Positions 12,501 to 64,000 of a stretch of DNA of 64,000 bases are shown piece after piece (within the stretch, counting starts at the first letter, position 1; the number at the start of each line of letters is the position of its first letter). Made by a program: the position numbers and the translations under genes. The notes beneath the pieces are model-generated. The model saw only the letters and a list, made by a program, of their open reading frames with translations, had not been told where the DNA came from and made no database searches. Source of the DNA: Eledone cirrhosa (taxonomy: Eukaryota). Location: contig OZ024740.1 of the NCBI GenBank assembly GCA_964016885.1, positions 279,496,001 to 279,560,000 on the forward strand, in the 5' to 3' direction.

Positions 12501-12519
12501 ATTTGGGTGATCCATTTTT

Positions 12520-23200: not shown

Positions 23201-23899
23201 CCCCCAAATAAAAAATAGATCACCCAAATAAAAAAGGGATCCATTTTTTATTTGGGTGATCCATTTTTTTATTTGGGTGATTCATTTTTTATTTGGGGGA
23301 TCCATTTTTTATTTGGGTGATCCATTTTTTATTTGGGTGATCCATTTTTTATTTGGGGGATCCATTTTTTATTTGGGTGATCCATTTTTTATTTGGGGGA
23401 TCCATTTTGTATTTGGGTGATCCATTTTTTATTTGAGCGATCCATTCTTTATTTGAGGGTTCCATTTTTTATTTGGGTGATCCATTTTTTATTTTGGTGA
23501 TCCATTTTTTATTTGGGGGATCCATTTTTTATTTGGGCGATCCATTTTTTATTTGGGTGATCCATTTTTTATTTGGGGGATCCATTTTTTATTTGGGTGA
23601 TCCATTTTTTATTTGGGTGATCCATTTTTTATTTGGGGGCCCATTTTTTATTTGGGTGATCCATTTTTTATTTGGGCGATCCATTTTTTATTTGGCTGAT
23701 CCATTTTTTATTTGGGTGATCCATTTTTTATTTGGGGGATCCATTTTTTATTTGGGTGATCCATTTTTTATTTGGGTGAGCCATTTTTTATTTGGGGGAT
23801 CCATTTTTTATTTGGGTGATCCATTTTTTATTTGGGTGATCCATTTTTTATTTGGGAATCCATTTTTTATTTGGGTGATCCATTTTTTATTTGGGAGAT

Positions 23900-26800
23900 C
23901 CATCAAATAAAAAATGGATCCCCCAAATAAAAATCGGATCACCATATAAAAAATGGATCACCCAAATAAAAAATGGATCCCCCAAATAAAAAATGGATCA
24001 CCCAAATAAAAACTGGATCCCCCAAATAAAAAATGGATCACCCAAATAGATAATGTATCCCCCAAATAAAAAATGGATCCGCCAAATAAAAAAGGGATCC
24101 ATTTTTTATTTGGGTGATCCATTTTTTATTTGGGGGATCCATTTTTTATTTGGGTGATCTATTTTTTATTTGGGTGATTCATTTTTTATTTGGGTGATCC
24201 ATTTTTTATTTGGGTGATCCATTTTTTATTTGGAGGATCCATTTTTTATTTGGGTGATCCATTTTTTATTTGGGTGATCCATTTTTTATTTGTGGGATCC
24301 ATTTTTTATTTGGGTGATCCATTTTTTATTTGAATGATCCATTTTTTATTTGGATGATCCATTTTTTTGGGGGAGATCCATTTTTTATTTGGGTGATCCA
24401 TTTTTTATTTGGGGGATCCATTTTTTATTTGGGTGATCCATTTTTTATTTGGGTGATCCATTTTTTATTTGGGGGATCCATTTTTTATTTGGGTGATCCA
24501 TTTTTTATTTGGGGGATCCATTTTTTATTTGGAGGATCATTTTTTATTTGGGTGATCCATTTTTTATTTGGGGGGATCTATTTTTTATTTGGGTGATCCA
24601 TTTTTTATTTGGGTGATCCATTTTTTATTTGGGTGATCCATTTTTTATTTGGTGGATCCATTTTTTATTTGGGAGATCCATTTTTATTTGGGGGTCCATT
24701 TTTTTGGGGGTGATCCATTTTCCATTTGGGTGATCCATTTTGTATTTGGGTGATCCATTTTTTATTTGGGTGATCCATTTTTTATTGGGGAGATCCATTT
24801 TTTATTTGGGTGATCCATTTTTTATTTGAGTGATCCATTCTTTATTTGAGGGATCCATTTTTTATTTGGGTGATTCATTTTTCATTTGGGTGATCCATTT
24901 TTTATTTGGGGGATCCATTTTTTATTTGGGCGATCCATTTTTTATTTCGCTGATCCAGTTTTTATTTGGGTGATCCATTTTTTATTTGGGTGATACATTT
25001 TTTATTTGGGGGATCCATTTTTTATTTGGGGTATCCATTTTTTATTTGGGTGATCCATTTTTTATTTGGGTGATCCATTTTTTATGTTTTGGATCCATTT
25101 TTTGTTTGGGGGATCCATTTTTTATTTGGGGGATCCATTTTTTATTTGGGTGATCCATTTTTTATTTGGGGGATCCATTTTTATTTGGGTGATCCATTTT
25201 TTATTTGGGTGATCCATTTTTTATTTGGGGGATCCATTTTTTATTTGGGTGTTCCATTTGTTATTTGGGTGATCCATTTTTTATTTGGGGCTCCATTTTT
25301 TATTTGGGTGATCCATTTTTTATTTGGGGGATCCATTTTTTATTTGGGGGATCCATTTTTTATTTGGGTGATCCATTTTTTATTTGGGGATCCATTTTTT
25401 ATTTGGGCGATCCATTTTTTATTTGGGTGATCCATTTTTTATTTGGGTGATCCATTTTTTATTTGGGTGATCCATTTTTTATTTGGAGGAGACATTTTTT
25501 ATTTAGGGATCCATTTTTTATTTGGGGATCCATTTTTTATTTGGGTGATCCATTTTTTATTTGGGGGATCCATTTTTTATTTGGGGGATCCATTTTTTAT
25601 TTGGGGGATCCATTTTTTACTTGGGTGATCCATTTTTTATTTGGGGGAACCAGTTTTAATTTGGGTGATCCATTTTTTATTTGGGGGATCCATTTTTTAT
25701 TTGGGTGATCCATTTTTTATTTTGAGGATCCAGTTTATATTTGGGGGATCCATTTTTTATTTGGGGGATCCATTTTTTATTTGGGTGTTTCATTTTTTAT
25801 TTGGGTGATCCATTTTTTATTTGGGGGATCCATTTTTTATTTGGATGATCCATTTTTTATTTGGGAGATCCATCAAATAAAAAATGGATCCCCCAAATAA
25901 AAAATGGATCCCTCAAATAAAAAATGGATCACCCAAATAAAAAATGGATCACCCAAATAAAAAATGTATCCCCAAATAAAAAATGGATCCCCCAAATATA
26001 AAATGGATCCCACAAATAAAAAATGGATCACCCAAATAAAAAATGGATCCCCCAAATAAAAAATAGATCACCCAAATAAAAAAGGGATCCATTTTTTATT
26101 TGGGTGATCCATTTTTTTATTTGGGTGATTCATTTTTTATTTGGGGGATCCATTTTTTATTTGGGTGATCCATTTTTTATTTGGGTGATCCATTTTTTAT
26201 TTGGGGGATCCATTTTTTATTTGGGTGATCCATTTTTTATTTGGGGGATCCATTTTGTATTTGGGTGATCCATTTTTTATTTGAGCGATCCATTCTTTAT
26301 TTGAGGGTTCCATTTTTTATTTGGGTGATCCATTTTTTATTTTGGTGATCCATTTTTTATTTGGGGGATCCATTTTTTATTTGGGCGATCCATTTTTTAT
26401 TTGGGTGATCCATTTTTTATTTGGGGGATCCATTTTTTATTTGGGTGATCCATTTTTTATTTGGGTGATCCATTTTTTATTTGGGGGCCCATTTTTTATT
26501 TGGGTGATCCATTTTTTATTTGGGCGATCCATTTTTTATTTGGCTGATCCATTTTTTATTTGGGTGATCCATTTTTTATTTGGGGGATCCATTTTTTATT
26601 TGGGTGATCCATTTTTTATTTGGGTGAGCCATTTTTTATTTGGGGGATCCATTTTTTATTTGGGTGATCCATTTTTTATTTGGGTGATCCATTTTTTATT
26701 TGGGAATCCATTTTTTATTTGGGTGATCCATTTTTTATTTGGGAGATCCATCAAATAAAAAATGGATCCCCCAAATAAAAATCGGATCACCATATAAAAA

Positions 26801-29800
26801 ATGGATCACCCAAATAAAAAATGGATCCCCCAAATAAAAAATGGATCACCCAAATAAAAACTGGATCCCCCAAATAAAAAATGGATCACCCAAATAGATA
26901 ATGTATCCCCCAAATAAAAAATGGATCCGCCAAATAAAAAAGGGATCCATTTTTTATTTGGGTGATCCATTTTTTATTTGGGGGATCCATTTTTTATTTG
27001 GGTGATCTATTTTTTATTTGGGTGATTCATTTTTTATTTGGGTGATCCATTTTTTATTTGGGTGATCCATTTTTTATTTGGGAGATCCATCAAATAAAAA
27101 ATGGATCCCCCAAATAAAAATCGGATCACCATATAAAAAATGGATCACCCAAATAAAAAATGGATCCCCCAAATAAAAAATGGATCACCCAAATAAAAAC
27201 TGGATCCCCCAAATAAAAAATGGATCACCCAAATAGATAATGTATCCCCCAAATAAAAAATGGATCCGCCAAATAAAAAAGGGATCCTTTTTTTATTTGG
27301 GTGATCCATTTTTTATTTGGGGGATCCATTTTTTATTTGGGTGATCTATTTTTTATTTGGGTGATTCATTTTTTATTTGGGTGATCCATTTTTTATTTGG
27401 GTGATCCATTTTTTATTTGGAGGATCCATTTTTTATTTGGGTGATCCATTTTTTATTTGGGTGATCCATTTTTTATTTGTGGGATCCATTTTTTATTTGG
27501 GTGATCCATTTTTTATTTGAATGATCCATTTTTTATTTGGATGATCCATTTTTTTGGGGGAGATCCATTTTTTATTTGGGTGATCCATTTTTTATTTGGG
27601 GGATCCATTTTTTATTTGGGTGATCCATTTTTTATTTGGGTGATCCATTTTTTATTTGGGGGATCCATTTTTTATTTGGGTGATCCATTTTTTATTTGGG
27701 GGATCCATTTTTTATTTGGAGGATCATTTTTTATTTGGGTGATCCATTTTTTATTTGGGGGGATCTATTTTTTATTTGGGTGATCCATTTTTTATTTGGG
27801 TGATCCATTTTTTATTTGGGTGATCCATTTTTTATTTGGTGGATCCATTTTTTATTTGGGAGATCCATTTTTATTTGGGGGTCCATTTTTTTGGGGGTGA
27901 TCCATTTTCCATTTGGGTGATCCATTTTGTATTTGGGTGATCCATTTTTTATTTGGGTGATCCATTTTTTATTGGGGAGATCCATTTTTTATTTGGGTGA
28001 TCCATTTTTTATTTGAGTGATCCATTCTTTATTTGAGGGATCCATTTTTTATTTGGGTGATTCATTTTTCATTTGGGTGATCCATTTTTTATTTGGGGGA
28101 TCCATTTTTTATTTGGGCGATCCATTTTTTATTTGGCTGATCCAGTTTTTATTTGGGTGATCCATTTTTTATTTGGGTGATACATTTTTTATTTGGGGGA
28201 TCCATTTTTTATTTGGGGTATCCATTTTTTATTTGGGTGATCCATTTTTTATTTGGGTGATCCATTTTTTATGTTTTGGATCCATTTTTTGTTTGGGGGA
28301 TCCATTTTTTATTTGGGGGATCCATTTTTTATTTGGGTGATCCATTTTTTATTTGGGGGATCCATTTTTATTTGGGTGATCCATTTTTTATTTGGGTGAT
28401 CCATTTTTTATTTGGGGGATCCATTTTTTATTTGGGTGTACCATTTGTTATTTGGGTGATCCATTTTTTATTTGGGGCTCCATTTTTTATTTGGGTGATC
28501 CATTTTTTATTTGGGGGATCCATTTTTTATTTGGGGGATCCATTTTTTATTTGGGTGATCCATTTTTTATTTGGGGATCCATTTTTTATTTGGGCGATCC
28601 ATTTTTTATTTGGGTGATCCATTTTTTATTTGGGTGATCCATTTTTTATTTGGGTGATCCATTTTTTATTTGGAGGAGACATTTTTTATTTAGGGATCCA
28701 TTTTTTATTTGGGGATCCATTTTTTATTTGGGTGATCCATTTTTTATTTGGGGGATCCATTTTTTATTTGGGGGATCCATTTTTTATTTGGGGGATCCAT
28801 TTTTTACTTGGGTGATCCATTTTTTATTTGGGGGAACCAGTTTTAATTTGGGTGATCCATTTTTTATTTGGGGGATCCATTTTTTATTTGGGTGATCCAT
28901 TTTTTATTTTGAGGATCCAGTTTATATTTGGGGGATCCATTTTTTATTTGGGGGATCCATTTTTTATTTGGGTGTTTCATTTTTTATTTGGGTGATCCAT
29001 TTTTTATTTGGGGGATCCATTTTTTATTTGGATGATCCATTTTTTATTTGGGAGATCCATCAAATAAAAAATGGATCCCCCAAATAAAAAATGGATCCCT
29101 CAAATAAAAAATGGATCACCCAAATAAAAAATGGATCACCCAAATAAAAAATGTATCCCCAAATAAAAAATGGATCCCCCAAATATAAAATGGATCCCAC
29201 AAATAAAAAATGGATCACCCAAATAAAAAATGGATCCCCCAAATAAAAAATAGATCACCCAAATAAAAAAGGGATCCATTTTTTATTTGGGTGATCCATT
29301 TTTTTATTTGGGTGATTCATTTTTTATTTGGGGGATCCATTTTTTATTTGGGTGATCCATTTTTTATTTGGGTGATCCATTTTTTATTTGGGGGATCCAT
29401 TTTTTATTTGGGTGATCCATTTTTTATTTGGGGGATCCATTTTGTATTTGGGTGATCCATTTTTTATTTGAGCGATCCATTCTTTATTTGAGGGTTCCAT
29501 TTTTTATTTGGGTGATCCATTTTTTATTTTGGTGATCCATTTTTTATTTGGGGGATCCATTTTTTATTTGGGCGATCCATTTTTTATTTGGGTGATCCAT
29601 TTTTTATTTGGGGGATCCATTTTTTATTTGGGTGATCCATTTTTTATTTGGGTGATCCATTTTTTATTTGGGGGCCCATTTTTTATTTGGGTGATCCATT
29701 TTTTATTTGGGCGATCCATTTTTTATTTGGCTGATCCATTTTTTATTTGGGTGATCCATTTTTTATTTGGGGGATCCATTTTTTATTTGGGTGATCCATT

Positions 29801-31000
29801 TTTTATTTGGGTGAGCCATTTTTTATTTGGGGGATCCATTTTTTATTTGGGTGATCCATTTTTTATTTGGGTGATCCATTTTTTATTTGGGAATCCATTT
29901 TTTATTTGGGTGATCCATTTTTTATTTGGGAGATCCATCAAATAAAAAATGGATCCCCCAAATAAAAATCGGATCACCATATAAAAAATGGATCACCCAA
30001 ATAAAAAATGGATCCCCCAAATAAAAAATGGATCACCCAAATAAAAACTGGATCCCCCAAATAAAAAATGGATCACCCAAATAGATAATGTATCCCCCAA
30101 ATAAAAAATGGATCCGCCAAATAAAAAAGGGATCCATTTTTTATTTGGGTGATCCATTTTTTATTTGGGGGATCCATTTTTTATTTGGGTGATCTATTTT
30201 TTATTTGGGTGATTCATTTTTTATTTGGGTGATCCATTTTTTATTTGGGTGATCCATTTTTTATTTGGGAGATCCATCAAATAAAAAATGGATCCCCCAA
30301 ATAAAAATCGGATCACCATATAAAAAATGGATCACCCAAATAAAAAATGGATCCCCCAAATAAAAAATGGATCACCCAAATAAAAACTGGATCCCCCAAA
30401 TAAAAAATGGATCACCCAAATAGATAATGTATCCCCCAAATAAAAAATGGATCCGCCAAATAAAAAAGGGATCCTTTTTTTATTTGGGTGATCCATTTTT
30501 TATTTGGGGGATCCATTTTTTATTTGGGTGATCTATTTTTTATTTGGGTGATTCATTTTTTATTTGGGTGATCCATTTTTTATTTGGGTGATCCATTTTT
30601 TATTTGGAGGATCCATTTTTTATTTGGGTGATCCATTTTTTATTTGGGTGATCCATTTTTTATTTGTGGGATCCATTTTTTATTTGGGTGATCCATTTTT
30701 TATTTGAATGATCCATTTTTTATTTGGATGATCCATTTTTTTGGGGGAGATCCATTTTTTATTTGGGTGATCCATTTTTTATTTGGGGGATCCATTTTTT
30801 ATTTGGGTGATCCATTTTTTATTTGGGTGATCCATTTTTTATTTGGGGGATCCATTTTTTATTTGGGTGATCCATTTTTTATTTGGGGGATCCATTTTTT
30901 ATTTGGAGGATCATTTTTTATTTGGGTGATCCATTTTTTATTTGGGGGGATCTATTTTTTATTTGGGTGATCCATTTTTTATTTGGGTGATCCATTTTTT
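23900..31000. repeat. Tandem HOR copies, period 3,187 bp (~2.2 copies)
   Basis: Offsets 24330/27517/30704, 25089/28276, 25873/29060 and 26321/29508 equal 3187. The first two copies share loss of the GATCGAA/GATGCA block and the GGGGTATCC variant. Confidence 0.85.
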
Positions 31001-34000
31001 ATTTGGGTGATCCATTTTTTATTTGGTGGATCCATTTTTTATTTGGGAGATCCATTTTTATTTGGGGGTCCATTTTTTGGGGGGGTGATCCATTTTCCAT
31101 TTGGGTGATCCATTTTGTATTTGGGTGATCCATTTTTTATTTGGGTGATCCATTTTTTATTGGGGGGATCCATTTTTTATTTGGGTGATCCATTTTTTAT
31201 TTGAGTGATCCATTCTTTATTTGAGGGATCCATTTTTTATTTGGGTGATTCATTTTTCATTTGGGTGATCCATTTTTTATTTGGGGGATCCATTTTTTAT
31301 TTGGGCGATCCATTTTTTATTTGGCTGATCCAGTTTTTATTTGGGTGATCCATTTTTTATTTGGGTGATACATTTTTTATTTGGGGGATCCATTTTTTAT
31401 TTGGGGGATCCATTTTTTATTTGGGTGATCCATTTTTTATTTGGGTGATCCATTTTTTATGTTTTGGATCCATTTTTTATTTGGGGGATCCATTTTTTAT
31501 TTGGGTGATCCATTTTTTATTTGGGTGATCCATTTTTTATTTGGAGGATCCATTTTTTATTTGGGTGATCGAATTTTTATTTGGAGGATGCATTTTTTAT
31601 TTGGGTGATCCATTTTTTATTTGGGTGATCAATTTTTTATTTGGGGGATCCATTTTTTATTTGGGTGATCCATTTTTTATTTGGGTGTCAATTTTTTATT
31701 TGGGTGATCCATTTTTTATTTGGGGGATCCATTTTTTATTTGGGAGATCCATTTTTTATTTGGGTGATCCATTTTTTATTTGGGGGATCCATTTTTATTT
31801 GGGTGATCCATTTTTTATTTGGGTGATCCATTTTTTATTTGGGGGATCCATTTTTTATTTGGGTGTTCCATTTGTTATTTGGGTGATCCATTTTTTATTT
31901 GGGGGTCCATTTTTTATTTGGGTGATCCATTTTTTATTTGGGGGATCCATTTTTTATTTGGAGGAGACATTTTTTATTTAGGGATCCATTTTTTATTTGG
32001 GGATCCATTTTTTATTTGGGTGATCCATTTTTTATTTGGGGGATCCATTTTTTATTTGGGGGATCCATTTTTTATTTGGGGGATCCATTTTTTACTTGGG
32101 TGATCCATTTTTTATTTGGGGGAACCAGTTTTAATTTGGGTGATCCATTTTTTATTTGGGGGATCCATTTTTTATTTGGGTGATCCATTTTTTATTTTGA
32201 GGATCCAGTTTATATTTGGGGGATCCATTTTTTATTTGGGGGATCCATTTTTTATTTGGGTGTTTCATTTTTTATTTGGGTGATCCATTTTTTATTTGGG
32301 GGATCCATTTTTTATTTGGATGATCCATTTTTTATTTGGGAGATCCATCAAATAAAAAATGGATCCCCCAAATAAAAAATGGATCCCTCAAATAAAAAAT
32401 GGATCACCCAAATAAAAAATGGATCACCCAAATAAAAAATGGATCCCCCAAATAAAAAATGGATCACCCAAATAAAAACTGGATCCCCCAAATAAAAAAT
32501 GGATCACCCAAATAGATAATGTATCCCCCAAATAAAAAATGGATCCGCCAAATAAAAAAGGGATCCTTTTTTTATTTGGGTGATCCATTTTTTATTTGGG
32601 GGATCCATTTTTTATTTGGGTGATCTATTTTTTATTTGGGTGATTCATTTTTTATTTGGGTGATCCATTTTTTATTTGGGTGATCCATTTTTTATTTGGA
32701 GGATCCATTTTTTATTTGGGTGATCCATTTTTTATTTGGGTGATCCATTTTTTATTTGTGGGATCCATTTTTTATTTGGGTGATCCATTTTTTATTTGAA
32801 TGATCCATTTTTTATTTGGATGATCCATTTTTTTGGGGGAGATCCATTTTTTATTTGGGTGATCCATTTTTTATTTGGGGGATCCATTTTTTATTTGGGT
32901 GATCCATTTTTTATTTGGGTGATCCATTTTTTATTTGGGGGATCCATTTTTTATTTGGGTGATCCATTTTTTATTTGGGGGATCCATTTTTTATTTGGAG
33001 GATCATTTTTTATTTGGGTGATCCATTTTTTATTTGGGGGGATCTATTTTTTATTTGGGTGATCCATTTTTTATTTGGGTGATCCATTTTTTATTTGGGT
33101 GATCCATTTTTTATTTGGTGGATCCATTTTTTATTTGGGAGATCCATTTTTATTTGGGGGTCCATTTTTTGGGGGGTGATCCATTTTCCATTTGGGTGAT
33201 CCATTTTGTATTTGGGTGATCCATTTTTTATTTGGGTGATCCATTTTTTATTGGGGGGATCCATTTTTTATTTGGGTGATCCATTTTTTATTTGAGTGAT
33301 CCATTCTTTATTTGAGGGATCCATTTTTTATTTGGGTGATTCATTTTTCATTTGGGTGATCCATTTTTTATTTGGGGGATCCATTTTTTATTTGGGCGAT
33401 CCATTTTTTATTTGGCTGATCCAGTTTTTATTTGGGTGATCCATTTTTTATTTGGGTGATACATTTTTTATTTGGGGGATCCATTTTTTATTTGGGGGAT
33501 CCATTTTTTATTTGGGTGATCCATTTTTTATTTGGGTGATCCATTTTTTATGTTTTGGATCCATTTTTTATTTGGGGGATCCATTTTTTATTTGGGTGAT
33601 CCATTTTTTATTTGGGTGATCCATTTTTTATTTGGAGGATCCATTTTTTATTTGGGTGATCGAATTTTTATTTGGAGGATGCATTTTTTATTTGGGTGAT
33701 CCATTTTTTATTTGGGTGATCAATTTTTTATTTGGGGGATCCATTTTTTATTTGGGTGATCCATTTTTTATTTGGGTGTCAATTTTTTATTTGGGTGATC
33801 CATTTTTTATTTGGGGGATCCATTTTTTATTTGGGAGATCCATTTTTTATTTGGGTGATCCATTTTTTATTTGGGGGATCCATTTTTATTTGGGTGATCC
33901 ATTTTTTATTTGGGTGATCCATTTTTTATTTGGGGGATCCATTTTTTATTTGGGTGTTCCATTTGTTATTTGGGTGATCCATTTTTTATTTGGGGGTCCA

Positions 34001-34510
34001 TTTTTTATTTGGGTGATCCATTTTTTATTTGGGGGATCCATTTTTTATTTGGAGGAGACATTTTTTATTTAGGGATCCATTTTTTATTTGGGGATCCATT
34101 TTTTATTTGGGTGATCCATTTTTTATTTGGGGGATCCATTTTTTATTTGGGGGATCCATTTTTTATTTGGGGGATCCATTTTTTACTTGGGTGATCCATT
34201 TTTTATTTGGGGGAACCAGTTTTAATTTGGGTGATCCATTTTTTATTTGGGGGATCCATTTTTTATTTGGGTGATCCATTTTTTATTTTGAGGATCCAGT
34301 TTATATTTGGGGGATCCATTTTTTATTTGGGGGATCCATTTTTTATTTGGGTGTTTCATTTTTTATTTGGGTGATCCATTTTTTATTTGGGGGATCCATT
34401 TTTTATTTGGATGATCCATTTTTTATTTGGGAGATCCATCAAATAAAAAATGGATCCCCCAAATAAAAAATGGATCCCTCAAATAAAAAATGGATCACCC
34501 AAATAAAAAA
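30330..34510. repeat. Tandem duplication, period ~2,091 bp, with its junction inside a chimeric inverted tract
   Basis: Offsets 31541/33632 and 32349/34440 equal 2091; 30704/32796 equals 2092. Both copies share the GGGTGTCAATT variant. Confidence 0.85.
32349..32560 (-). repeat. Chimeric inverted tract (type A start, type B end); single copy
   Basis: It begins with the A marker CCCTC and lacks the B marker ATCGGATCACCATAT. It ends with B markers AAACTGG, TAGATAATGTA, CCGCC. Confidence 0.9.
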
Positions 34511-36211
34511 TGGATCACCCAAATAAAAAATGTATCCCCAAATAAAAAATGGATCCCCCAAATATAAAATGGATCCCACAAATAAAAAATGGATCACCCA
34601 AATAAAAAATGGATCCCCCAAATAAAAAATAGATCACCCAAATAAAAAAGGGATCCATTTTTTATTTGGGTGATCCATTTTTTTATTTGGGTGATTCATT
34701 TTTTATTTGGGGGATCCATTTTTTATTTGGGTGATCCATTTTTTATTTGGGTGATCCATTTTTTATTTGGGGGATCCATTTTTTATTTGGGTGATCCATT
34801 TTTTATTTGGGGGATCCATTTTGTATTTGGGTGATCCATTTTTTATTTGAGCGATCCATTCTTTATTTGAGGGTTCCATTTTTTATTTGGGTGATCCATT
34901 TTTTATTTTGGTGATCCATTTTTTATTTGGGGGATCCATTTTTTATTTGGGCGATCCATTTTTTATTTGGGTGATCCATTTTTTATTTGGGGGATCCATT
35001 TTTTATTTGGGTGATCCATTTTTTATTTGGGTGATCCATTTTTTATTTGGGGGCCCATTTTTTATTTGGGTGATCCATTTTTTATTTGGGCGATCCATTT
35101 TTTATTTGGCTGATCCATTTTTTATTTGGGTGATCCATTTTTTATTTGGGGGATCCATTTTTTATTTGGGTGATCCATTTTTTATTTGGGTGAGCCATTT
35201 TTTATTTGGGGGATCCATTTTTTATTTGGGTGATCCATTTTTTATTTGGGTGATCCATTTTTTATTTGGGAATCCATTTTTTATTTGGGTGATCCATTTT
35301 TTATTTGGGAGATCCATCAAATAAAAAATGGATCCCCCAAATAAAAATCGGATCACCATATAAAAAATGGATCACCCAAATAAAAAATGGATCCCCCAAA
35401 TAAAAAATGGATCACCCAAATAAAAACTGGATCCCCCAAATAAAAAATGGATCACCCAAATAGATAATGTATCCCCCAAATAAAAAATGGATCCGCCAAA
35501 TAAAAAAGGGATCCATTTTTTATTTGGGTGATCCATTTTTTATTTGGGGGATCCATTTTTTATTTGGGTGATCTATTTTTTATTTGGGTGATTCATTTTT
35601 TATTTGGGTGATCCATTTTTTATTTGGGTGATCCATTTTTTATTTGGAGGATCCATTTTTTATTTGGGTGATCCATTTTTTATTTGGGTGATCCATTTTT
35701 TATTTGTGGGATCCATTTTTTATTTGGGTGATCCATTTTTTATTTGAATGATCCATTTTTTATTTGGATGATCCATTTTTTGGGGGGAGATCCATTTTTT
35801 ATTTGGGTGATCCATTTTTTATTTGGGGGATCCATTTTTTATTTGGGTGATCCATTTTTTATTTGGGTGATCCATTTTTTATTTGGGGGATCCATTTTTT
35901 ATTTGGGTGATCCATTTTTTATTTGGGGGATCCATTTTTTATTTGGAGGATCATTTTTTATTTGGGTGATCCATTTTTTATTTGGGGGGATCTATTTTTT
36001 ATTTGGGTGATCCATTTTTTATTTGGGTGATCCATTTTTTATTTGGGTGATCCATTTTTTATTTGGTGGATCCATTTTTTATTTGGGAGATCCATTTTTA
36101 TTTGGGGGTCCATTTTTTTGGGGGTGATCCATTTTCCATTTGGGTGATCCATTTTGTATTTGGGTGATCCATTTTTTATTTGAGGGATCCATTTTTTATT
36201 TGATGGTTCTT

Positions 36212-37229
36212 CCAAATAAAAAATGGATCACCCAAATAAAAAAATGATCCCCCAAATAAAAAATGGATCACCCAAATAAAAAATGGATCACCCAAATAAA
36301 AAATAGATCCGCCAAATAAAAAATGGATCCCCCAAATAAAAATGGATCCCCCAAATAAAAAATGGATCACTCAAATAAAAAATGGAACACCCAAATAAAA
36401 AATGGATCCCCCAAATAAAAAATGGATCCCCCAAATAAAAAATGGATCACCCAAATAAAAAATGGATCCCCCAAATAAAAAATGGATCACCCAAATAAAA
36501 ACTGGATCCCCCAAATAAAAAATGGATCACCCAAATAAAAAATGGATCCCCCAAATAAAAAATGGATCCCCCAAATAAAAAATGGATCACCCAAATAAAA
36601 AATGGATCCCCCAAATAAAAAATGGATCACCCAAATAAAAACTGGATCCCCCAAATAAAAAATGGATCACCCAAATAAAAAATGGATCCCCCAAATAAAA
36701 AATGGATCACCCAAATAAAAAATGGATCCCCCAAATAAAAAATGGATCCCCCAAATAAAAAATGGATCCCCCAAATAAAAAATGGATCCCCCAAATAAAA
36801 AATGGATCACCCAAATAAAAAATGGATCACCCAAATAAAAAATGGATCACCCAAATAAAAAATGCATCCTCCAAATAAAAAATGGATCACCCAAATAAAA
36901 AAAGATCCTAGCAAATAAAAAATGGATCACCCAAATACAAAATGGATCACGCAAATAAAAAATGGATCCCCCAAATAAAAAATGGATCCCCCAAATAAAA
37001 AATGGATCCCCCAAATAAAAAATGGATCACCCAAATAAAAAATGGATCACCCAAATAAAAAATGGATCACCCAAATAAAAAATGGATCGCCCAAATAAAA
37101 AATGGATCCCCCAAATAAAAAATGGATAGCCCAAATAAAAAATGGATCCCCCAAATAAAAAATGGATCCCCCAAATAAAAAATGGATCACCCAAATAAAA
37201 AATTGTTCACCCAAATAAAAAATGGATCC
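36212..37229 (-). repeat. Long inverted satellite tract (~1,018 bp, ~51 monomers), copy 1
   Basis: Continuous reverse monomers between TTTGATGGTTCTTCCAAAT and AATGGATCCCTTTTTTATTTAGCGG. Confidence 0.95.
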
Positions 37230-38590
37230 CTTTTTTATTTAGCGGATCCATTTTTTATTTCGGTGATCCATTTTTTATTTGGTGGATCCATTTTTAATTT
37301 GGGGGATCCATTTTTTATTTGGGTGATCCATTTTTTATTTGGGGGATCCATTTTTTATTTGAGGGATCAATTTTTTATTTGGGTGATCCATTTTTTATTT
37401 GGGTGATCCATTTTTTATTTGGTGATCCATTTTTTATTTGGGGGATCCATTTTTTATTTGGGTGATCGATTTTTTATTTGGGTGATCCATTTTTTATTTG
37501 GGGGATCCATTTTTTATTTGGGTGATCCATTTTTTATTTGGGGGATCCATTTTTTATTTGGGCGATCCATTTTTTATTTGGGGGATCCATTTTTTATTTG
37601 GGGGATCCATTTTTTATTTGGGGGATCCATTTTATATTTGGGTGATCCATTTTTTATTTGGGTGATCCATTTTCTATTTGGGGGATCCATTTTTTATTTG
37701 GGGGATCCATTTTTTATTTGGGGGATCCATTTTTTATTTGAGGGTCCATTTTTTGGGGGGTGATCCATTTTTTATTTTTTGGATCCATTTTTTATTTGGG
37801 TGATCCATTTTTTATTTGGGTGATCCATTTTCTATTTGGGTGATACATTTTTTATTTGGGTGATCCATTTTTTATTTGGGTGATCCATTTTTTATTTGTG
37901 GGATCCTATTTTTATTTGGGCGATCCATTTTTTATTTGGGGGATTCATTTTTTATTTGGGTGATCCATTTTTTATTTGGGGTATCCATTTTTAATTTGGG
38001 TGATCCATTTTTTATTTGGGTGATCCATTTTTTATTTGGTGGATCCATTTTTAATTTGGGGGATCCATTTTTTATTTGGGTGATCCATTTTTTATTTGGG
38101 GGATCCATTTTTTATTTGGGGGATCAATTTTTTATTTGGGTGATCCATTTTTTATTTGGGTGATCCATTTTTTATTTGGTGATCCATTTTTTATTTGGGT
38201 GATCGATTTTTTATTTGGGTGATCTATTTTTTATTTGGGGTATCCATTTTTAATTTGGGTGATCCATTTTTTATTTGGGTGATCCATTTTTTATTTGGGT
38301 GATCCATTTTTTATTTGAGTGATCCATTTTTTATTTGGGGGATCCATTTTTTATTTGGGTGATCCATTTTTTATTTGGGGGATCCATTTTTTATTTGGGC
38401 GATCCATTTTTTATTTGGGGGATCCATTTTTTATTTGGGGGATCCATTTTTTATTTGGGGGATCCATTTTTTATTTGGGGGATCCATTTTATATTTGGGT
38501 GATCCATTTTTTATTTGGGTGATCCATTTTTTATTTGGGGGATCCATTTTTTATTTGGGGGATCCATTTTTTATTTGGGTGATCCATTTT

Positions 38591-38759
38591 TTATTTGAGC
38601 GATCCATTCTTCTTTATTTGAGGGTTCCATTTTTTAAAAAATGGATCACCCAAATAAAAAATGGATCCCCCAAATAAAAAATGGTTCCCCCAAATAAATG
38701 GTTCCCTCAAATTTTTATTTGAACGATCCATTCTTCTTTATTTGAGGGTTTCATTTTTT
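38591..38759. repeat. Mini-inversion (~76 bp) flanked by a ~45-bp direct duplication, copy 1 (also ~41314-41482 and ~53042-53210)
   Basis: TTATTTGAGCGATCCATTCTTCTTTATTTGAGGGTTCCATTTTT, then inverted monomers, then TTATTTGAACGATCCATTCTTCTTTATTTGAGGGTTTCATTTTT. Confidence 0.9.
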
Positions 38760-39253
38760 ATTTGGGTGATCCATTTTTTATTTTGGTGATCCATTTTTTA
38801 TTTGGGGGATCCATTTTTTATTTGGGGGATCCATTTTTGATTTGGGTGATCCATTTTTTATTTGGGTGATCCATTTTTTATTTGGGTGATGCATTTTTTA
38901 TTTGGGGGAACCATTTTTTATTTGGGGGATCCATTTTTTATTTGGGTGATCCATTTTTTATTTGGGTGATCCATTTTTTATTTGGTTGATCCATTTTTTA
39001 TTTGGTTGATCCATTTTTTATTTGGGTGATCCATTTTTTATTTGGGGGATCCATTTTTCATTTGGGTGATCCATTTTTTATTTGGGTGATCCATTTTTTA
39101 TTTGGGGGCCCATTTTTTATTTGGGTGAGCCATTTTTTATTTGGGGGATCCATTTTTTATTTGGGTGATCCATTTTTTATTTGGGTGATCCATTTTTTAT
39201 TTGGGGGATCCATTTTTTATTTGGGTGATCCATTTTTTATTTGGGAGATCCAT

Positions 39254-39464
39254 CAAATAAAAAATGGATCCCCCAAATAAAAATCGGATCACCATATAAA
39301 AAATGGATCACACAAATAAAAAATGTATCCCCCAAATAAAAAATGGATCACCCAAATAAAAACTGGATCCCCCAAATAAAAAATGGATCACCCAAATAGA
39401 TAATGTATCCCCCAAATAAAAAATGGATCCCTCAAATAAAAAATGGATCCCCCAAATAAAAAAG
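39254..39464 (-). repeat. Short inverted tract, type B' (~211 bp); also 41977-42187 and 53705-53915
   Basis: B markers plus CACAC, a second TGTATC and CCCTC. It has one more monomer than B, the same junctions, and is followed by the T7 monomer seen after type A. Confidence 0.9.
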
Positions 39465-42400
39465 GGATCCATTTTTTATTTGGGTGATCCATTTTTTTAT
39501 TTGGGTGATCCATTTTTTATTTGGGGGATCCATTTTTTATTTGGGGGATCCATTTTTTACTTGGGTGATCCATTTTTTATTTGGGGGAACCAGTTTTAAT
39601 TTGGGTGATCCATTTTTTATTTGGGGGATCCATTTTTTATTTGGGTGATCCATTTTTTATTTTGAGGATCCAGTTTATATTTGGGGGATCCATTTTTTAT
39701 TTGGGGGATCCATTTTTTATTTGGGTGTTTCATTTTTTATTTGGGTGATCCATTTTTTATTTGGGGGATCCATTTTTTATTTGGATGATCCATTTTTTAT
39801 TTGGGAGATCCATCAAATAAAAAATGGATCCCCCAAATAAAAAATGGATCCCTCAAATAAAAAATGGATCACCCAAATAAAAAATGGATCACCCAAATAA
39901 AAAATGTATCCCCAAATAAAAAATGGATCCCCCAAATATAAAATGGATCCCACAAATAAAAAATGGATCACCCAAATAAAAAATGGATCCCCCAAATAAA
40001 AAATAGATCACCCAAATAAAAAAGGGATCCATTTTTTATTTGGGTGATCCATTTTTTTATTTGGGTGATTCATTTTTTATTTGGGGGATCCATTTTTTAT
40101 TTGGGTGATCCATTTTTTATTTGGGTGATCCATTTTTTATTTGGGGGATCCATTTTTTATTTGGGTGATCCATTTTTTATTTGGGGGATCCATTTTGTAT
40201 TTGGGTGATCCATTTTTTATTTGAGCGATCCATTCTTTATTTGAGGGTTCCATTTTTTATTTGGGTGATCCATTTTTTATTTTGGTGATCCATTTTTTAT
40301 TTGGGGGATCCATTTTTTATTTGGGGGATCCATTTTTTATTTGGGGGATCCATTTTATATTTGGGTGATCCATTTTTTATTTGGGTGATCCATTTTCTAT
40401 TTGGGGGATCCATTTTTTATTTGGGGGATCCATTTTTTATTTGGGGGATCCATTTTTTATTTGAGGGTCCATTTTTTGGGGGGTGATCCATTTTTTATTT
40501 TTTGGATCCATTTTTTATTTGGGTGATCCATTTTTTATTTGGGTGATCCATTTTCTATTTGGGTGATACATTTTTTATTTGGGTGATCCATTTTTTATTT
40601 GGGTGATCCATTTTTTATTTGTGGGATCCTATTTTTATTTGGGCGATCCATTTTTTATTTGGGGGATTCATTTTTTATTTGGGTGATCCATTTTTTATTT
40701 GGGGTATCCATTTTTAATTTGGGTGATCCATTTTTTATTTGGGTGATCCATTTTTTATTTGGTGGATCCATTTTTAATTTGGGGGATCCATTTTTTATTT
40801 GGGTGATCCATTTTTTATTTGGGGGATCCATTTTTTATTTGGGGGATCAATTTTTTATTTGGGTGATCCATTTTTTATTTGGGTGATCCATTTTTTATTT
40901 GGTGATCCATTTTTTATTTGGGTGATCGATTTTTTATTTGGGTGATCTATTTTTTATTTGGGGTATCCATTTTTAATTTGGGTGATCCATTTTTTATTTG
41001 GGTGATCCATTTTTTATTTGGGTGATCCATTTTTTATTTGAGTGATCCATTTTTTATTTGGGGGATCCATTTTTTATTTGGGTGATCCATTTTTTATTTG
41101 GGGGATCCATTTTTTATTTGGGCGATCCATTTTTTATTTGGGGGATCCATTTTTTATTTGGGGGATCCATTTTTTATTTGGGGGATCCATTTTTTATTTG
41201 GGGGATCCATTTTATATTTGGGTGATCCATTTTTTATTTGGGTGATCCATTTTTTATTTGGGGGATCCATTTTTTATTTGGGGGATCCATTTTTTATTTG
41301 GGTGATCCATTTTTTATTTGAGCGATCCATTCTTCTTTATTTGAGGGTTCCATTTTTTAAAAAATGGATCACCCAAATAAAAAATGGATCCCCCAAATAA
41401 AAAATGGTTCCCCCAAATAAATGGTTCCCTCAAATTTTTATTTGAACGATCCATTCTTCTTTATTTGAGGGTTTCATTTTTTATTTGGGTGATCCATTTT
41501 TTATTTTGGTGATCCATTTTTTATTTGGGGGATCCATTTTTTATTTGGGGGATCCATTTTTGATTTGGGTGATCCATTTTTTATTTGGGTGATCCATTTT
41601 TTATTTGGGTGATGCATTTTTTATTTGGGGGAACCATTTTTTATTTGGGGGATCCATTTTTTATTTGGGTGATCCATTTTTTATTTGGGTGATCCATTTT
41701 TTATTTGGTTGATCCATTTTTTATTTGGTTGATCCATTTTTTATTTGGGTGATCCATTTTTTATTTGGGGGATCCATTTTTCATTTGGGTGATCCATTTT
41801 TTATTTGGGTGATCCATTTTTTATTTGGGGGCCCATTTTTTATTTGGGTGAGCCATTTTTTATTTGGGGGATCCATTTTTTATTTGGGTGATCCATTTTT
41901 TATTTGGGTGATCCATTTTTTATTTGGGGGATCCATTTTTTATTTGGGTGATCCATTTTTTATTTGGGAGATCCATCAAATAAAAAATGGATCCCCCAAA
42001 TAAAAATCGGATCACCATATAAAAAATGGATCACACAAATAAAAAATGTATCCCCCAAATAAAAAATGGATCACCCAAATAAAAACTGGATCCCCCAAAT
42101 AAAAAATGGATCACCCAAATAGATAATGTATCCCCCAAATAAAAAATGGATCCCTCAAATAAAAAATGGATCCCCCAAATAAAAAAGGGATCCATTTTTT
42201 ATTTGGGTGATCCATTTTTTTATTTGGGTGATCCATTTTTTATTTGGGGGATCCATTTTTTATTTGGGGGATCCATTTTTTACTTGGGTGATCCATTTTT
42301 TATTTGGGGGAACCAGTTTTAATTTGGGTGATCCATTTTTTATTTGGGGGATCCATTTTTTATTTGGGTGATCCATTTTTTATTTTGAGGATCCAGTTTA

Positions 42401-45400
42401 TATTTGGGGGATCCATTTTTTATTTGGGGGATCCATTTTTTATTTGGGTGTTTCATTTTTTATTTGGGTGATCCATTTTTTATTTGGGGGATCCATTTTT
42501 TATTTGGATGATCCATTTTTTATTTGGGAGATCCATCAAATAAAAAATGGATCCCCCAAATAAAAAATGGATCCCTCAAATAAAAAATGGATCACCCAAA
42601 TAAAAAATGGATCACCCAAATAAAAAATGTATCCCCAAATAAAAAATGGATCCCCCAAATATAAAATGGATCCCACAAATAAAAAATGGATCACCCAAAT
42701 AAAAAATGGATCCCCCAAATAAAAAATAGATCACCCAAATAAAAAAGGGATCCATTTTTTATTTGGGTGATCCATTTTTTTATTTGGGTGATTCATTTTT
42801 TATTTGGGGGATCCATTTTTTATTTGGGTGATCCATTTTTTATTTGGGTGATCCATTTTTTATTTGGGGGATCCATTTTTTATTTGGGTGATCCATTTTT
42901 TATTTGGGGGATCCATTTTGTATTTGGGTGATCCATTTTTTATTTGAGCGATCCATTCTTTATTTGAGGGTTCCATTTTTTATTTGGGTGATCCATTTTT
43001 TATTTTGGTGATCCATTTTTTATTTGGGGGATCCATTTTTTATTTGGGCGATCCATTTTTTATTTGGGTGATCCATTTTTTATTTGGGGGATCCATTTTT
43101 TATTTGTGTGATCCATTTTTTATTTGGGTGATCCATTTTTTATTTGGGGGCCCATTTTTTATTTGGGTGATCCATTTTTTATTTGGGCGATCCATTTTTT
43201 ATTTGGCTGATCCATTTTTTATTTGGGTGATCCATTTTTTATTTGGGGGATCCATTTTTTATTTGGGTGATCCATTTTTTATTTGGGTGAGCCATTTTTT
43301 ATTTGGGGGATCCATTTTTTATTTGGGTGATCCATTTTTTATTTGGGTGATCCATTTTTTATTTGGGAATCCATTTTTTATTTGGGTGATCCATTTTTTA
43401 TTTGGGAGATCCATCAAATAAAAAATGGATCCCCCAAATAAAAATCGGATCACCATATAAAAAATGGATCACCCAAATAAAAAATGGATCCCCCAAATAA
43501 AAAATGGATCACCCAAATAAAAACTGGATCCCCCAAATAAAAAATGGATCACCCAAATAGATAATGTATCCCCCAAATAAAAAATGGATCCGCCAAATAA
43601 AAAAGGGATCCATTTTTTATTTGGGTGATCCATTTTTTATTTGGGGGATCCATTTTTTATTTGGGTGATCTATTTTTTATTTGGGTGATTCATTTTTTAT
43701 TTGGGTGATCCATTTTTTATTTGGGTGATCCATTTTTTATTTGGAGGATCCATTTTTTATTTGGGTGATCCATTTTTTATTTGGGTGATCCATTTTTTAT
43801 TTGTGGGATCCATTTTTTATTTGGGTGATCCATTTTTTATTTGAATGATCCATTTTTTATTTGGATGATCCATTTTTTTGGGGGAGATCCATTTTTTATT
43901 TGGGTGATCCATTTTTTATTTGGGGGATCCATTTTTTATTTGGGTGATCCATTTTTTATTTGGGTGATCCATTTTTTATTTGGGGGATCCATTTTTTATT
44001 TGGGTGATCCATTTTTTATTTGGGGGATCCATTTTTTATTTGGAGGATCATTTTTTATTTGGGTGATCCATTTTTTATTTGGGGGGATCTATTTTTTATT
44101 TGGGTGATCCATTTTTTATTTGGGTGATCCATTTTTTATTTGGGTGATCCATTTTTTATTTGGTGGATCCATTTTTTATTTGGGAGATCCATTTTTATTT
44201 GGGGGTCCATTTTTTTGGGGGTGATCCATTTTCCATTTGGGTGATCCATTTTGTATTTGGGTGATCCATTTTTTATTTGGGTGATCCATTTTTTATTGGG
44301 GAGATCCATTTTTTATTTGGGTGATCCATTTTTTATTTGAGTGATCCATTCTTTATTTGAGGGATCCATTTTTTATTTGGGTGATTCATTTTTCATTTGG
44401 GTGATCCATTTTTTATTTGGGGGATCCATTTTTTATTTGGGCGATCCATTTTTTATTTGGCTGATCCAGTTTTTATTTGGGTGATCCATTTTTTATTTGG
44501 GTGATACATTTTTTATTTGGGGGATCCATTTTTTATTTGGGGGATCCATTTTTTATTTGGGTGATCCATTTTTTATTTGGGTGATCCATTTTTTATGTTT
44601 TGGATCCATTTTTTGTTTGGGGGATCCATTTTTTATTTGGGTGATCCATTTTTTATTTGGGTGATCCATTTTTTATTTGGAGGATCCATTTTTTATTTGG
44701 GTGATCGAATTTTTATTTGGAGGATGCATTTTTTATTTGGGTGATCCATTTTTTATTTGGGTGATCAATTTTTTATTTGGGGGATCCATTTTTTATTTGG
44801 GTGATCCATTTTTTATTTGGGTGTCCATTTTTTATTTGGGTGATCCATTTTTTATTTGGGGGATCCATTTTTTATTTGGGGGATCCATTTTTTATTTGGG
44901 TGATCCATTTTTTATTTGGGGGATCCATTTTTATTTGGGTGATCCATTTTTTATTTGGGTGATCCATTTTTTATTTGGGGGATCCATTTTTTATTTGGGT
45001 GTTCCATTTGTTATTTGGGTGATCCATTTTTTATTTGGGGCTCCATTTTTTATTTGGGTGATCCATTTTTTATTTGGGGGATCCATTTTTTATTTGGGGG
45101 ATCCATTTTTTATTTGGGTGATCCATTTTTTATTTGGGGATCCATTTTTTATTTGGGCGATCCATTTTTTATTTGGGTGATCCATTTTTTATTTGGGTGA
45201 TCCATTTTTTATTTGGGTGATCCATTTTTTATTTGGAGGAGACATTTTTTATTTAGGGATCCATTTTTTATTTGGGGATCCATTTTTTATTTGGGTGATC
45301 CATTTTTTATTTGGGGGATCCATTTTTTATTTGGGGGATCCATTTTTTATTTGGGGGATCCATTTTTTACTTGGGTGATCCATTTTTTATTTGGGGGAAC

Positions 45401-48400
45401 CAGTTTTAATTTGGGTGATCCATTTTTTATTTGGGGGATCCATTTTTTATTTGGGTGATCCATTTTTTATTTTGAGGATCCAGTTTATATTTGGGGGATC
45501 CATTTTTTATTTGGGGGATCCATTTTTTATTTGGGTGTTTCATTTTTTATTTGGGTGATCCATTTTTTATTTGGGGGATCCATTTTTTATTTGGATGATC
45601 CATTTTTTATTTGGGAGATCCATCAAATAAAAAATGGATCCCCCAAATAAAAAATGGATCCCTCAAATAAAAAATGGATCACCCAAATAAAAAATGGATC
45701 ACCCAAATAAAAAATGTATCCCCAAATAAAAAATGGATCCCCCAAATATAAAATGGATCCCACAAATAAAAAATGGATCACCCAAATAAAAAATGGATCC
45801 CCCAAATAAAAAATAGATCACCCAAATAAAAAAGGGATCCATTTTTTATTTGGGTGATCCATTTTTTTATTTGGGTGATTCATTTTTTATTTGGGGGATC
45901 CATTTTTTATTTGGGTGATCCATTTTTTATTTGGGTGATCCATTTTTTATTTGGGGGATCCATTTTTTATTTGGGTGATCCATTTTTTATTTGGGGGATC
46001 CATTTTGTATTTGGGTGATCCATTTTTTATTTGAGCGATCCATTCTTTATTTGAGGGTTCCATTTTTTATTTGGGTGATCCATTTTTTATTTTGGTGATC
46101 CATTTTTTATTTGGGGGATCCATTTTTTATTTGGGCGATCCATTTTTTATTTGGGTGATCCATTTTTTATTTGGGGGATCCATTTTTTATTTGGGTGATC
46201 CATTTTTTATTTGGGTGATCCATTTTTTATTTGGGGGCCCATTTTTTATTTGGGTGATCCATTTTTTATTTGGGCGATCCATTTTTTATTTGGCTGATCC
46301 ATTTTTTATTTGGGTGATCCATTTTTTATTTGGGGGATCCATTTTTTATTTGGGTGATCCATTTTTTATTTGGGTGAGCCATTTTTTATTTGGGGGATCC
46401 ATTTTTTATTTGGGTGATCCATTTTTTATTTGGGTGATCCATTTTTTATTTGGGAATCCATTTTTTATTTGGGTGATCCATTTTTTATTTGGGAGATCCA
46501 TCAAATAAAAAATGGATCCCCCAAATAAAAATCGGATCACCATATAAAAAATGGATCACCCAAATAAAAAATGGATCCCCCAAATAAAAAATGGATCACC
46601 CAAATAAAAACTGGATCCCCCAAATAAAAAATGGATCACCCAAATAGATAATGTATCCCCCAAATAAAAAATGGATCCGCCAAATAAAAAAGGGATCCAT
46701 TTTTTATTTGGGTGATCCATTTTTTATTTGGGGGATCCATTTTTTATTTGGGTGATCTATTTTTTATTTGGGTGATTCATTTTTTATTTGGGTGATCCAT
46801 TTTTTATTTGGGTGATCCATTTTTTATTTGGGAGATCCATCAAATAAAAAATGGATCCCCCAAATAAAAATCGGATCACCATATAAAAAATGGATCACCC
46901 AAATAAAAAATGGATCCCCCAAATAAAAAATGGATCACCCAAATAAAAACTGGATCCCCCAAATAAAAAATGGATCACCCAAATAGATAATGTATCCCCC
47001 AAATAAAAAATGGATCCGCCAAATAAAAAAGGGATCCATTTTTTATTTGGGTGATCCATTTTTTATTTGGGGGATCCATTTTTTATTTGGGTGATCTATT
47101 TTTTATTTGGGTGATTCATTTTTTATTTGGGTGAACCATTTTTTATTTGGGTGATCCATTTTTTATTTGGAGGATCCATTTTTTATTTGGGTGATCCATT
47201 TTTTATTTGGGTGATCCATTTTTTATTTGTGGGATCCATTTTTTATTTGGGTGATCCATTTTTTATTTGAATGATCCATTTTTTATTTGGATGATCCATT
47301 TTTTTGGGGGAGATCCATTTTTTATTTGGGTGATCCATTTTTTATTTGGGGGATCCATTTTTTATTTGGGTGATCCATTTTTTATTTGGGTGATCCATTT
47401 TTTATTTGGGGGATCCATTTTTTATTTGGGTGATCCATTTTTTATTTGGGGGATCCATTTTTTATTTGGAGGATCATTTTTTATTTGGGTGATCCATTTT
47501 TTATTTGGGGGGATCTATTTTTTATTTGGGTGATCCATTTTTTATTTGGGTGATCCATTTTTTATTTGGGTGATCCATTTTTTATTTGGGAGATCCATTT
47601 TTATTTGGGGGTCCATTTTTTTGGGGGTGATCCATTTTCCATTTGGGTGATCCATTTTGTATTTGGGTGATCCATTTTTTATTTGGGTGATCCATTTTTT
47701 ATTGGGGGGATCCATTTTTTATTTGGGTGATCCATTTTTTATTTGAGTGATCCATTCTTTATTTGAGGGATCCATTTTTTATTTGGGTGATTCATTTTTC
47801 ATTTGGGTGATCCATTTTTTATTTGGGGGATCCATTTTTTATTTGGGCGATCCATTTTTTATTTGGCTGATCCAGTTTTTATTTGGGTGATCCATTTTTT
47901 ATTTGGGTGATACATTTTTTATTTGGGGGATCCATTTTTTATTTGGGGGATCCATTTTTTATTTGGGTGATCCATTTTTTATTTGGGTGATCCATTTTTT
48001 ATGTTTTGGATCCATTTTTTATTTGGGGGATCCATTTTTTATTTGGGTGATCCATTTTTTATTTGGGTGATCCATTTTTTATTTGGAGGATCCATTTTTT
48101 ATTTGGGTGATCGAATTTTTATTTGGAGGATGCATTTTTTATTTGGGTGATCCATTTTTTATTTGGGTGATCAATTTTTTATTTGGGGGATCCATTTTTT
48201 ATTTGGGTGATCCATTTTTTATTTGGGTGTCAATTTTTTATTTGGGTGATCCATTTTTTATTTGGGGGATCCATTTTTTATTTGGGAGATCCATTTTTTA
48301 TTTGGGTGATCCATTTTTTATTTGGGGGATCCATTTTTATTTGGGTGATCCATTTTTTATTTGGGTGATCCATTTTTTATTTGGGGGATCCATTTTTTAT

Positions 48401-63428: not shown

Positions 63429-64000
63429 CTTTTTTATTTAGCGGATCCATTTTTTATTTCGGTGATCCATTTTTTATTTGGTGGATCCATTTTTAATTTG
63501 GGGGATCCATTTTTTATTTGGGTGATCCATTTTTTATTTGGGGGATCCATTTTTTATTTGAGGGATCAATTTTTTATTTGGGTGATCCATTTTTTATTTG
63601 GGTGATCCATTTTTTATTTGGTGATCCATTTTTTATTTGGGGGATCCATTTTTTATTTGGGTGATCGATTTTTTATTTGGGTGATCCATTTTTTATTTGG
63701 GGGATCCATTTTTTATTTGGGTGATCCATTTTTTATTTGGGGGATCCATTTTTTATTTGGGCGATCCATTTTTTATTTGGGGGATCCATTTTTTATTTGG
63801 GGGATCCATTTTTTATTTGGGGGATCCATTTTATATTTGGGTGATCCATTTTTTATTTGGGTGATCCATTTTCTATTTGGGGGATCCATTTTTTATTTGG
63901 GGGATCCATTTTTTATTTGGGGGATCCATTTTTTATTTGAGGGTCCATTTTTTGGGGGGTGATCCATTTTTTATTTTTTGGATCCATTTTTTATTTGGGT

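What the first reader, a model, noticed from the sequence alone, without database searches (positions are those of the whole stretch)
36180..37260. The 1-kb inversion is a flipped inter-inversion segment: its ends are reverse complements of J1 and J2
Seen: the left end reverse-complemented reads CCATTTTTTATTTGGAAGAACCATCAAATAAAAAAT, versus J1 CCATTTTTTATTTGGGAGATCCATCAAATAAAAAAT (2 differences). The right end reverse-complemented reads GGATCCGCTAAATAAAAAAGGGATCCATTTT, versus the type-B J2 GGATCCGCCAAATAAAAAAGGGATCCATTTT (1 difference). Read on the minus strand, the block is J2 - 1-kb forward tract - J1, an ordinary spacer between two short inversions. It also carries variants seen in forward tracts (rc of GGAGGATGCA, TTTTGTATTT, TGAGTG, GGTGTTCC). 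Inference: existing inverted tracts served as homology arms that let a segment re-insert in the opposite orientation with seamless outer breakpoints. Inversions would thereby propagate further inversions without creating new junction types.
Basis: partly seen in the sequence, partly recalled or inferred. Interest (0 to 1): 0.75.

Follow-up and report, generated by a model that had tools for sequence, protein, structure and literature searches.

The report
Satellite flips recycle old joints
A back-to-front 1-kb patch in a 20-base repeated DNA ends in reversed copies of the array's two common joints and is spliced in without a scar, likely because copying slips between oppositely facing stretches re-plant old joints instead of making new ones, although this particular patch is an old, much-copied one rather than a fresh flip of its neighbours.

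Summary
Observation confirmed: the block's ends are reversed J1 (2 substitutions) and type-B J2 (1); random joins do as well in 187 and 4 of 20,000 trials. The block is not a fresh flip: it has 13 same-orientation homologues in the 224-kb array (96.6-99.9%), and no J2-F-J1 donor with its variant order lies in that array. Its J1-/J2- orientation is the majority one genome-wide (J1 165 reverse, 75 forward). It entered the window's repeat unit through scar-free splices at 36157-36182 and 38492-38597. Three younger events show junction recycling directly: an 8.5-kb inverted duplication (99.76%, 21 old-type junctions), a 0.95-kb flip carrying a foreign polarity marker with a duplicated arm, and a junction-free inverted insert. 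Template switching between oppositely oriented tracts is the likely mechanism. Conserved satellite inversion sites are known from Tribolium, and template switching at inverted repeats is known. This scan already noted junction reuse on other DNA of this genome (e1-9595097, e1-9953286, e1-10311140).

The parts
1..64000 (.). 20-bp satellite, part of a 224-kb array (window coordinates about -19.7 kb to 204 kb); 102 orientation switches in the window: 45 J1+, 45 J2+, 3 J1-, 3 J2-, 3 J3, 3 J4
35292..35327 (+). reference J1 (forward-to-reverse junction, asymmetric join)
35488..35518 (+). reference type-B J2 (reverse-to-forward junction at the monomer's GGATCC, with extra G and CCGC)
35519..36156 (+). 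left flank: first part of an ordinary forward spacer (F1859 type) of the window's J1+/J2+ repeat unit
   Evidence: 35783-36182 matches 8 ordinary spacers exactly; tokens
36157..36182 (.). left scar-free splice interval: last spacer-specific variant at 36156, first J1-arm-specific variant at 36183
36183..36202 (-). retained piece of J1's arm (GAGG monomer), same as in J1+ type A and exact J1- relatives
36193..36228 (-). reversed J1 with 2 substitutions
36203..37229 (-). 1-kb reverse tract (50 monomers); member of an old J1-/J2- family with 13 same-orientation homologues in the array
37220..37250 (-). reversed type-B J2 with 1 substitution (AGCG form; 78 copies genome-wide, 74 in this orientation)
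37251..38491 (+). right flank: forward tract that belongs to the same J1-/J2- family, not to the window's common unit
   Evidence: 37265-38578 matches 89545-90858 at 97.3%; tokens
38492..38597 (.). right scar-free splice interval into the arm of junction J3
50646..51700 (-). second copy of the block (1 substitution), inside a direct duplication 33121-40325 to 47572-54776
62394..63450 (-). third copy of the block (1 substitution), inside a direct duplication 32412-38470 to 58611-64669

Best explanation
The block is an old reverse-oriented copy of the satellite's J2-spacer-J1 unit, spliced scar-free into a forward-oriented unit and then multiplied by direct duplication, and such flips likely arise when copying switches template between oppositely oriented tracts and so re-plants existing junctions. 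Shown: the ends descend from J1/J2; both outer joins lie in consensus monomers; the block has many direct copies; younger inverted copies elsewhere carry only old junction types. Inferred: because every repeat unit holds both monomer orientations, a unit and its reverse complement both offer forward tracts on one strand, so a switch from a forward tract into a reverse tract (and back) copies the intervening junctions backwards with no new join, and later ordinary same-direction exchange can splice the two unit orientations together. Which of these two routes made the splices at 36157-36182 and 38492-38597 is not resolved; same-direction exchange with the neighbouring J1-/J2- domain is the likelier one for the right splice.
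For: Junction descent beyond chance with exact and intermediate forms in the lineage. Relatives of the block at 78917, 91787, 100278 and 114604 keep a 6-monomer J1 arm shared with J1+ at -18103 and -19356. Left splice within 26 bp of consensus. Event 1: 164915-173390 is mirrored at 174035-182513 (8419 identities, 20 mismatches, 99.76%), 21 junctions per arm, all J1/J2 types, both ends scar-free. Event 2: C1:295,303,885-295,304,830 is the reverse complement of a normal unit (99.24%) including a 22-mer and 15-mer satellite that otherwise run one way inside these composite units, and its 0.2-kb arm is present twice (194 of 194 aligned bases identical); this fits the 1-3-4-2 type of the four-point template-switch model (PMC5453318, passages). 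Event 3: 77130-77760 matches the reverse complement of a block relative at 98.5% against 93.6-94.1% for two forward controls, with no junction at either end. 357 of 381 junctions of the array class as J1/J2.
Against: No donor for this block in its own array (best ordinary J2-F-J1 spacer 13.1, null maximum 20.8), so the original flip of this block is not reconstructed. The ancestral state of events 1-3 is inferred from sister units, not from a second genome. Two successive unequal crossovers can mimic a template switch. A palindromic J2 (31 copies) could be re-made independently at GGATCC. One assembly only; no reads examined.
Confidence: 0.65

Rival explanations
1. Reciprocal crossover between inverted tracts (non-allelic homologous recombination) flips an odd number of junctions in place; later unequal crossovers assemble J1-/J2- pairs and the duplicated arms.
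For: Events 1 and 2 flip odd numbers of switches (21 and 3); discordant tracts are common; joins lie in homologous sequence.
Against: A single crossover conserves sequence, whereas events 1-3 each leave duplicated sequence; a block with forward flanks on both sides cannot come from one crossover (logic of parity).
Confidence: 0.2
2. One reading: the local ordinary spacer between two short inversions was flipped en bloc, with the two short reverse tracts as arms.
For: Topology fits; left arm remnant; it fits the shorter R188 block (rc of 143230-143520 matches 6030-6260 at 96.4% with exact J2-B and J1).
Against: No donor; right flank shares only one monomer with the type-B arm and then follows the J1-/J2- family for 1.3 kb; the AGCG junction is spread over three arrays, so it predates the window's units.
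Confidence: 0.07
3. Excised circles or long fragments of the array re-insert in either orientation by homology (eccDNA route proposed for Tribolium).
For: Arrays 16 Mb apart share units in opposite orientation; proposed in PMC12581902 (passages).
Against: Events 1 and 2 sit next to their templates, as local switching predicts; all 240 exact J1 copies lie in three loci of one chromosome.
Confidence: 0.05
4. The junctions are kept by selection as hairpin or protein-binding landmarks.
For: Junction-centred 116-mers fold at -34 to -38 kcal/mol against -6.7 for a one-way stretch; function is proposed for Tribolium sites (PMC13081366, passages).
Against: Any inversion point folds so; the block's J1 has taken 2 substitutions; junction density varies widely between domains; descent alone explains the identity.
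Confidence: 0.03

Closest known systems
Macro-dyad satellite arrays with conserved inversion sites in Tribolium madens (INV_1a, INV_1b, INV_2; PMC13081366, passages seen) and T. freemani (six inversion types; PMC12581902, passages seen)
   Same: Few, highly conserved inversion sites repeated many times, no foreign sequence at the join, intermingled second satellite with fixed transitions (arrays B and C here).
   Different: 20-bp monomer and a switch about every 0.6 kb; the same junction is found in both orientations and young flips can be traced to base level; confined to three loci of one chromosome. The passages seen do not describe junction recycling; their supplementary alignments were not opened and may bear on this.
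Strand switches in human HSat3 (chr9) and beta-satellite (10.1101/2021.07.12.452052, passages; 10.64898/2026.07.22.740206, passages; PMC13684623, passages)
   Same: Hundreds of orientation switches whose number scales with array length, read as by-products of array expansion.
   Different: Those passages count switches; they do not show inherited junctions re-planted in reverse by later events.
Four-point template-switch model (PMC5453318, passages) and inverted-repeat-mediated DUP-TRP/INV-DUP (PMC4352052, abstract)
   Same: Two switches, inverted copy, duplicated arm, breakpoints hidden inside inverted homology.
   Different: Described for short unique sequence or large segmental duplications; here the inverted homology is supplied everywhere by the satellite's own earlier inversions.

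Membership tests
Satellite macro-dyad arrays with conserved inversion sites (Tribolium type) | orientation switches inside one satellite array | tested here: met
   381 switches in 224 kb
Satellite macro-dyad arrays with conserved inversion sites (Tribolium type) | few conserved inversion-site types without foreign sequence | tested here: met
   357 of 381 J1/J2, 21 J3/J4, 3 unclassed; sequences
Satellite macro-dyad arrays with conserved inversion sites (Tribolium type) | multi-kilobase inverted subarrays | tested here: inconclusive
   most tracts are 0.05-3 kb; one 8.5-kb mirrored segment
Satellite macro-dyad arrays with conserved inversion sites (Tribolium type) | present on many chromosomes, (peri)centromeric | tested here: not met
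   all 240 exact J1 and 78 AGCG-J2 copies lie in three loci of contig C1; centromere position not testable
Template-switch inverted duplication | inverted copy with duplicated arm and return to the forward template | tested here: met
   events at C1:295.304 Mb and 165-182 kb; not shown for the 1-kb block itself
Template-switch inverted duplication | formation during replication or repair synthesis | not testable with these tools
   needs pedigree or cell-line data
   693 tracts searched; none in array A above the null
Foldback-type transposon ends | paired inverted termini around an internal non-repeat body | tested here: not met
   the gaps in arrays B and C are other satellites (22-mer, 15-mer) and the bordering J1 copies face the same way

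The most novel reading that the evidence does not exclude
Satellite inversions are self-propagating: once an array holds one inversion, its two junctions become heritable parts that template switching re-plants in either orientation at any scale, so 'conserved inversion sites' in satellites generally, including the Tribolium centromeric ones read as functional, need no selection, and the rate of new flips rises with the number already present.
Probability: 0.35. Interest if true: 0.6.

Novelty: new variant of a known kind. Interest (0 to 1): 0.35.

Why it matters
Conserved inversion sites in satellites have been read as possible structural landmarks (PMC13081366, PMC12581902; passages). Here asymmetric junctions act as orientation marks, and one event carries a foreign polarity marker, so it can be shown at base level that new inversions reuse old junctions. 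That gives a neutral null model and a simple test (do asymmetric sites occur in both orientations with discordant pairs?) for other satellites. It also warns that counting junction types undercounts inversion events. No function is shown.

Tried and rejected
Donor search by BLAST and by monomer-level alignment with a shuffled null: no ordinary spacer donor. One search used a pattern that I mis-composed and that is not in the block; its zero result says nothing. The first distances printed were out of register and were recomputed. Trees of junction contexts gave 25 (J1, 219 rows) and 19 (J2, 140 rows) orientation changes, but one multi-junction inversion counts many times and no shuffled control was printed, so they are not event counts. 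Transposon-end reading of arrays B and C rejected. Assembly chimera for the 8.5-kb mirror judged unlikely (20 mismatches, two 20-bp indels, no N) but not tested with reads. Literature: monomer strings found in no paper; 22-mer and 15-mer strings only in one unrelated paper; term searches listed no paper on junction recycling in satellites; most subscription journals are outside the library. One paper id was not held; its preprint was read instead. The stretch beyond C1:296.33 Mb was only sampled (10 x 10 kb) and was not part of the donor search.

Full report
Setting. The window is a 20-bp satellite from end to end in a 3.0-Gb eukaryote genome, at C1:279,496,001-279,560,000 of a 443-Mb contig. 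The array (A) runs from about -19.7 kb to 204 kb in window coordinates between a 19-bp and a 196-bp satellite. Coordinates outside 1-64000 below continue the window's scale. Two more junction-bearing arrays lie at C1:295.24-295.37 Mb (C) and from 296.15 Mb (B). F is the T-rich orientation, R its reverse; J1 is the F-to-R and J2 the R-to-F junction; + and - give their direction.

Observation. The left end (36193-36228) is J1 reversed with 2 of 36 differences; the right end (37220-37250) is type-B J2 reversed with 1 of 31. In 20,000 simulated independent inversions of real forward tracts, 187 came that close to J1 and 4 to J2-B; forced through the monomer's GATC, 322 and 0. Exact J1- junctions and a one-substitution intermediate occur in relatives of the block.

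What the block is. It occurs three times in the window, inside 5-7-kb direct duplications, the copies differing by 1 substitution. Among 693 tracts of the three arrays, 13 other reverse tracts of array A align to it above the shuffled-monomer maximum of 20.8, all bounded J1-/J2-; the 12 that I aligned at base level are 96.6-99.9% identical. Three forward tracts pass: an internal piece of the tract at 76826-78924, not bounded by J2+/J1+, and two 525-bp J2+ F J1+ tracts in array B. The latter sit in an inverted copy of the whole neighbourhood, flanks included (97-99%), so they are sisters, not donors. The best ordinary J2-F-J1 spacer in array A scores 13.1.

Polarity is relative. Exact J1 occurs 75 times forward and 165 times reverse genome-wide, all in A, B and C; the block's AGCG form of J2 occurs 74 times in the block's orientation and 4 times opposite. 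In C and the left of B, J1- R J2- F J1- is the standard unit, alternating with 22-mer and 15-mer satellites. The block has the majority orientation; the window's common J1+/J2+ units are the reverse of it. Which is ancestral cannot be told from one genome.

Outer breakpoints. Left: 35783-36182 matches 8 ordinary forward spacers exactly; the last spacer-specific variant is at 36156 and the first J1-arm variant (GAGG monomer, 191 of 10,659 monomers in A) at 36183, so the splice lies in 26 bp of consensus. Relatives keep 6 monomers of that arm, shared with J1+ copies at the array's left edge. Right: the flank shares only its first monomer with the type-B arm and follows the J1-/J2- family to about 38.58 kb; the switch into the J3 arm lies in 38492-38597. 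The foreign segment is thus about 2.4 kb, not 1 kb, and both joins are forward-to-forward.

Is junction recycling real? In array A 357 of 381 junctions class as J1 or J2, 21 as a second pair J3/J4, 3 unclassed; 32 of 143 reverse tracts and 50 of 137 forward tracts with two oriented ends are discordant, each marking a splice, or a copy of one, between opposite unit orientations. Three younger events show the process. (1) 164915-173390 is mirrored at 174035-182513 at 99.76%; each arm holds 21 old-type junctions, and both ends of the copy pass into neighbouring sequence within one or two consensus monomers. (2) At C1:295,303,885-295,304,830 a unit is reversed together with its 22-mer and 15-mer pieces, which fix the polarity; its 0.2-kb arm is present twice, as an exact mirror. 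(3) 77130-77760 is an inverted copy of the block family's interior with no junction at all (98.5% against controls of 93.6 and 94.1%).

Mechanism. A single reciprocal crossover conserves sequence and flips an odd number of junctions; it cannot give a block with forward flanks on both sides, nor duplicated arms (logic). Two template switches can: event 2 has the 1-3-4-2 order of the four-point model (PMC5453318, passages), if its ancestral state was like the sister units in B (inferred). Once both unit orientations exist, same-direction unequal exchange suffices to splice them. I put template switching plus direct exchange at 0.65, multi-step crossover at 0.2. Junctions fold as strong hairpins, as any inversion point would; this is no evidence of function.

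Comparison. Conserved satellite inversion sites are described in Tribolium (PMC13081366, PMC12581902; passages), length-scaled strand switches in human HSat3 and beta-satellite (passages), and homology-hidden template switches at inverted repeats (PMC4352052, abstract). My searches listed no description of this monomer or of junction recycling; supplements of the Tribolium papers were not opened and those of preprints are closed. Earlier unreviewed notes of this scan reached similar readings further along this array and in another satellite of the genome; I saw them after my analysis was done.

Verdict. Real feature, correctly seen; the general inference is supported by other events, the specific history of this block is not as proposed. 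A new variant of a known organisation, useful as a neutral model for conserved inversion sites. Interest 0.35.

Noticed in passing
G000:C1:279,660,915-279,678,513 (L017-L018): 16.7-kb near-perfect palindrome inside the array (8.5-kb arms, 99.76%); it marks the change from a forward-dominated to a reverse-dominated domain.
   Followed up: yes
G000:C1:279,666,954-279,667,879 (L017): Small fold-back of about 0.45-kb arms (99.3%) centred on a J2 junction.
   Followed up: partly
L064-L076 and L055-L060: Composite satellite: 22-bp tract, five 15-bp units, then J1-/J2- tracts of the 20-mer, with fixed transitions; just upstream in L061-L063 the 15-mer runs in the opposite direction.
   Followed up: partly
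window 38590-38720, 41312-41443, 53040-53171: Second junction pair J3/J4 around a 2-3-monomer inversion with a locally duplicated CTTCTT variant; 12 J3 and 9 J4 in array A.
   Followed up: no
L081-L086 (C1:296.33-296.6 Mb) and L019-L020: Large nearly one-way domains dotted with tiny inversions bounded by a J1 variant and a perfectly palindromic J2; possibly the simplest or oldest state of the junction pair.
   Followed up: no
L005:620-660: The J1+ at the array's left edge shares the GGAAGA change with the block's reversed J1, although the block's older relative lacks it: homoplasy or conversion.
   Followed up: no
window 27271, 30458, 32550: J2+ with an extra A-to-T change, and a hybrid type-A/type-B short inversion at 32331-32557.
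   Followed up: no
L001-L005, L021-L028, L041-L044, L077-L080: Neighbouring satellites of 19, 196, 32, 24 and 27 bp abut the arrays directly; the region is a satellite mosaic. Short repeats near L052-L054 resemble octopus SINEs (recalled, untested).
   Followed up: no
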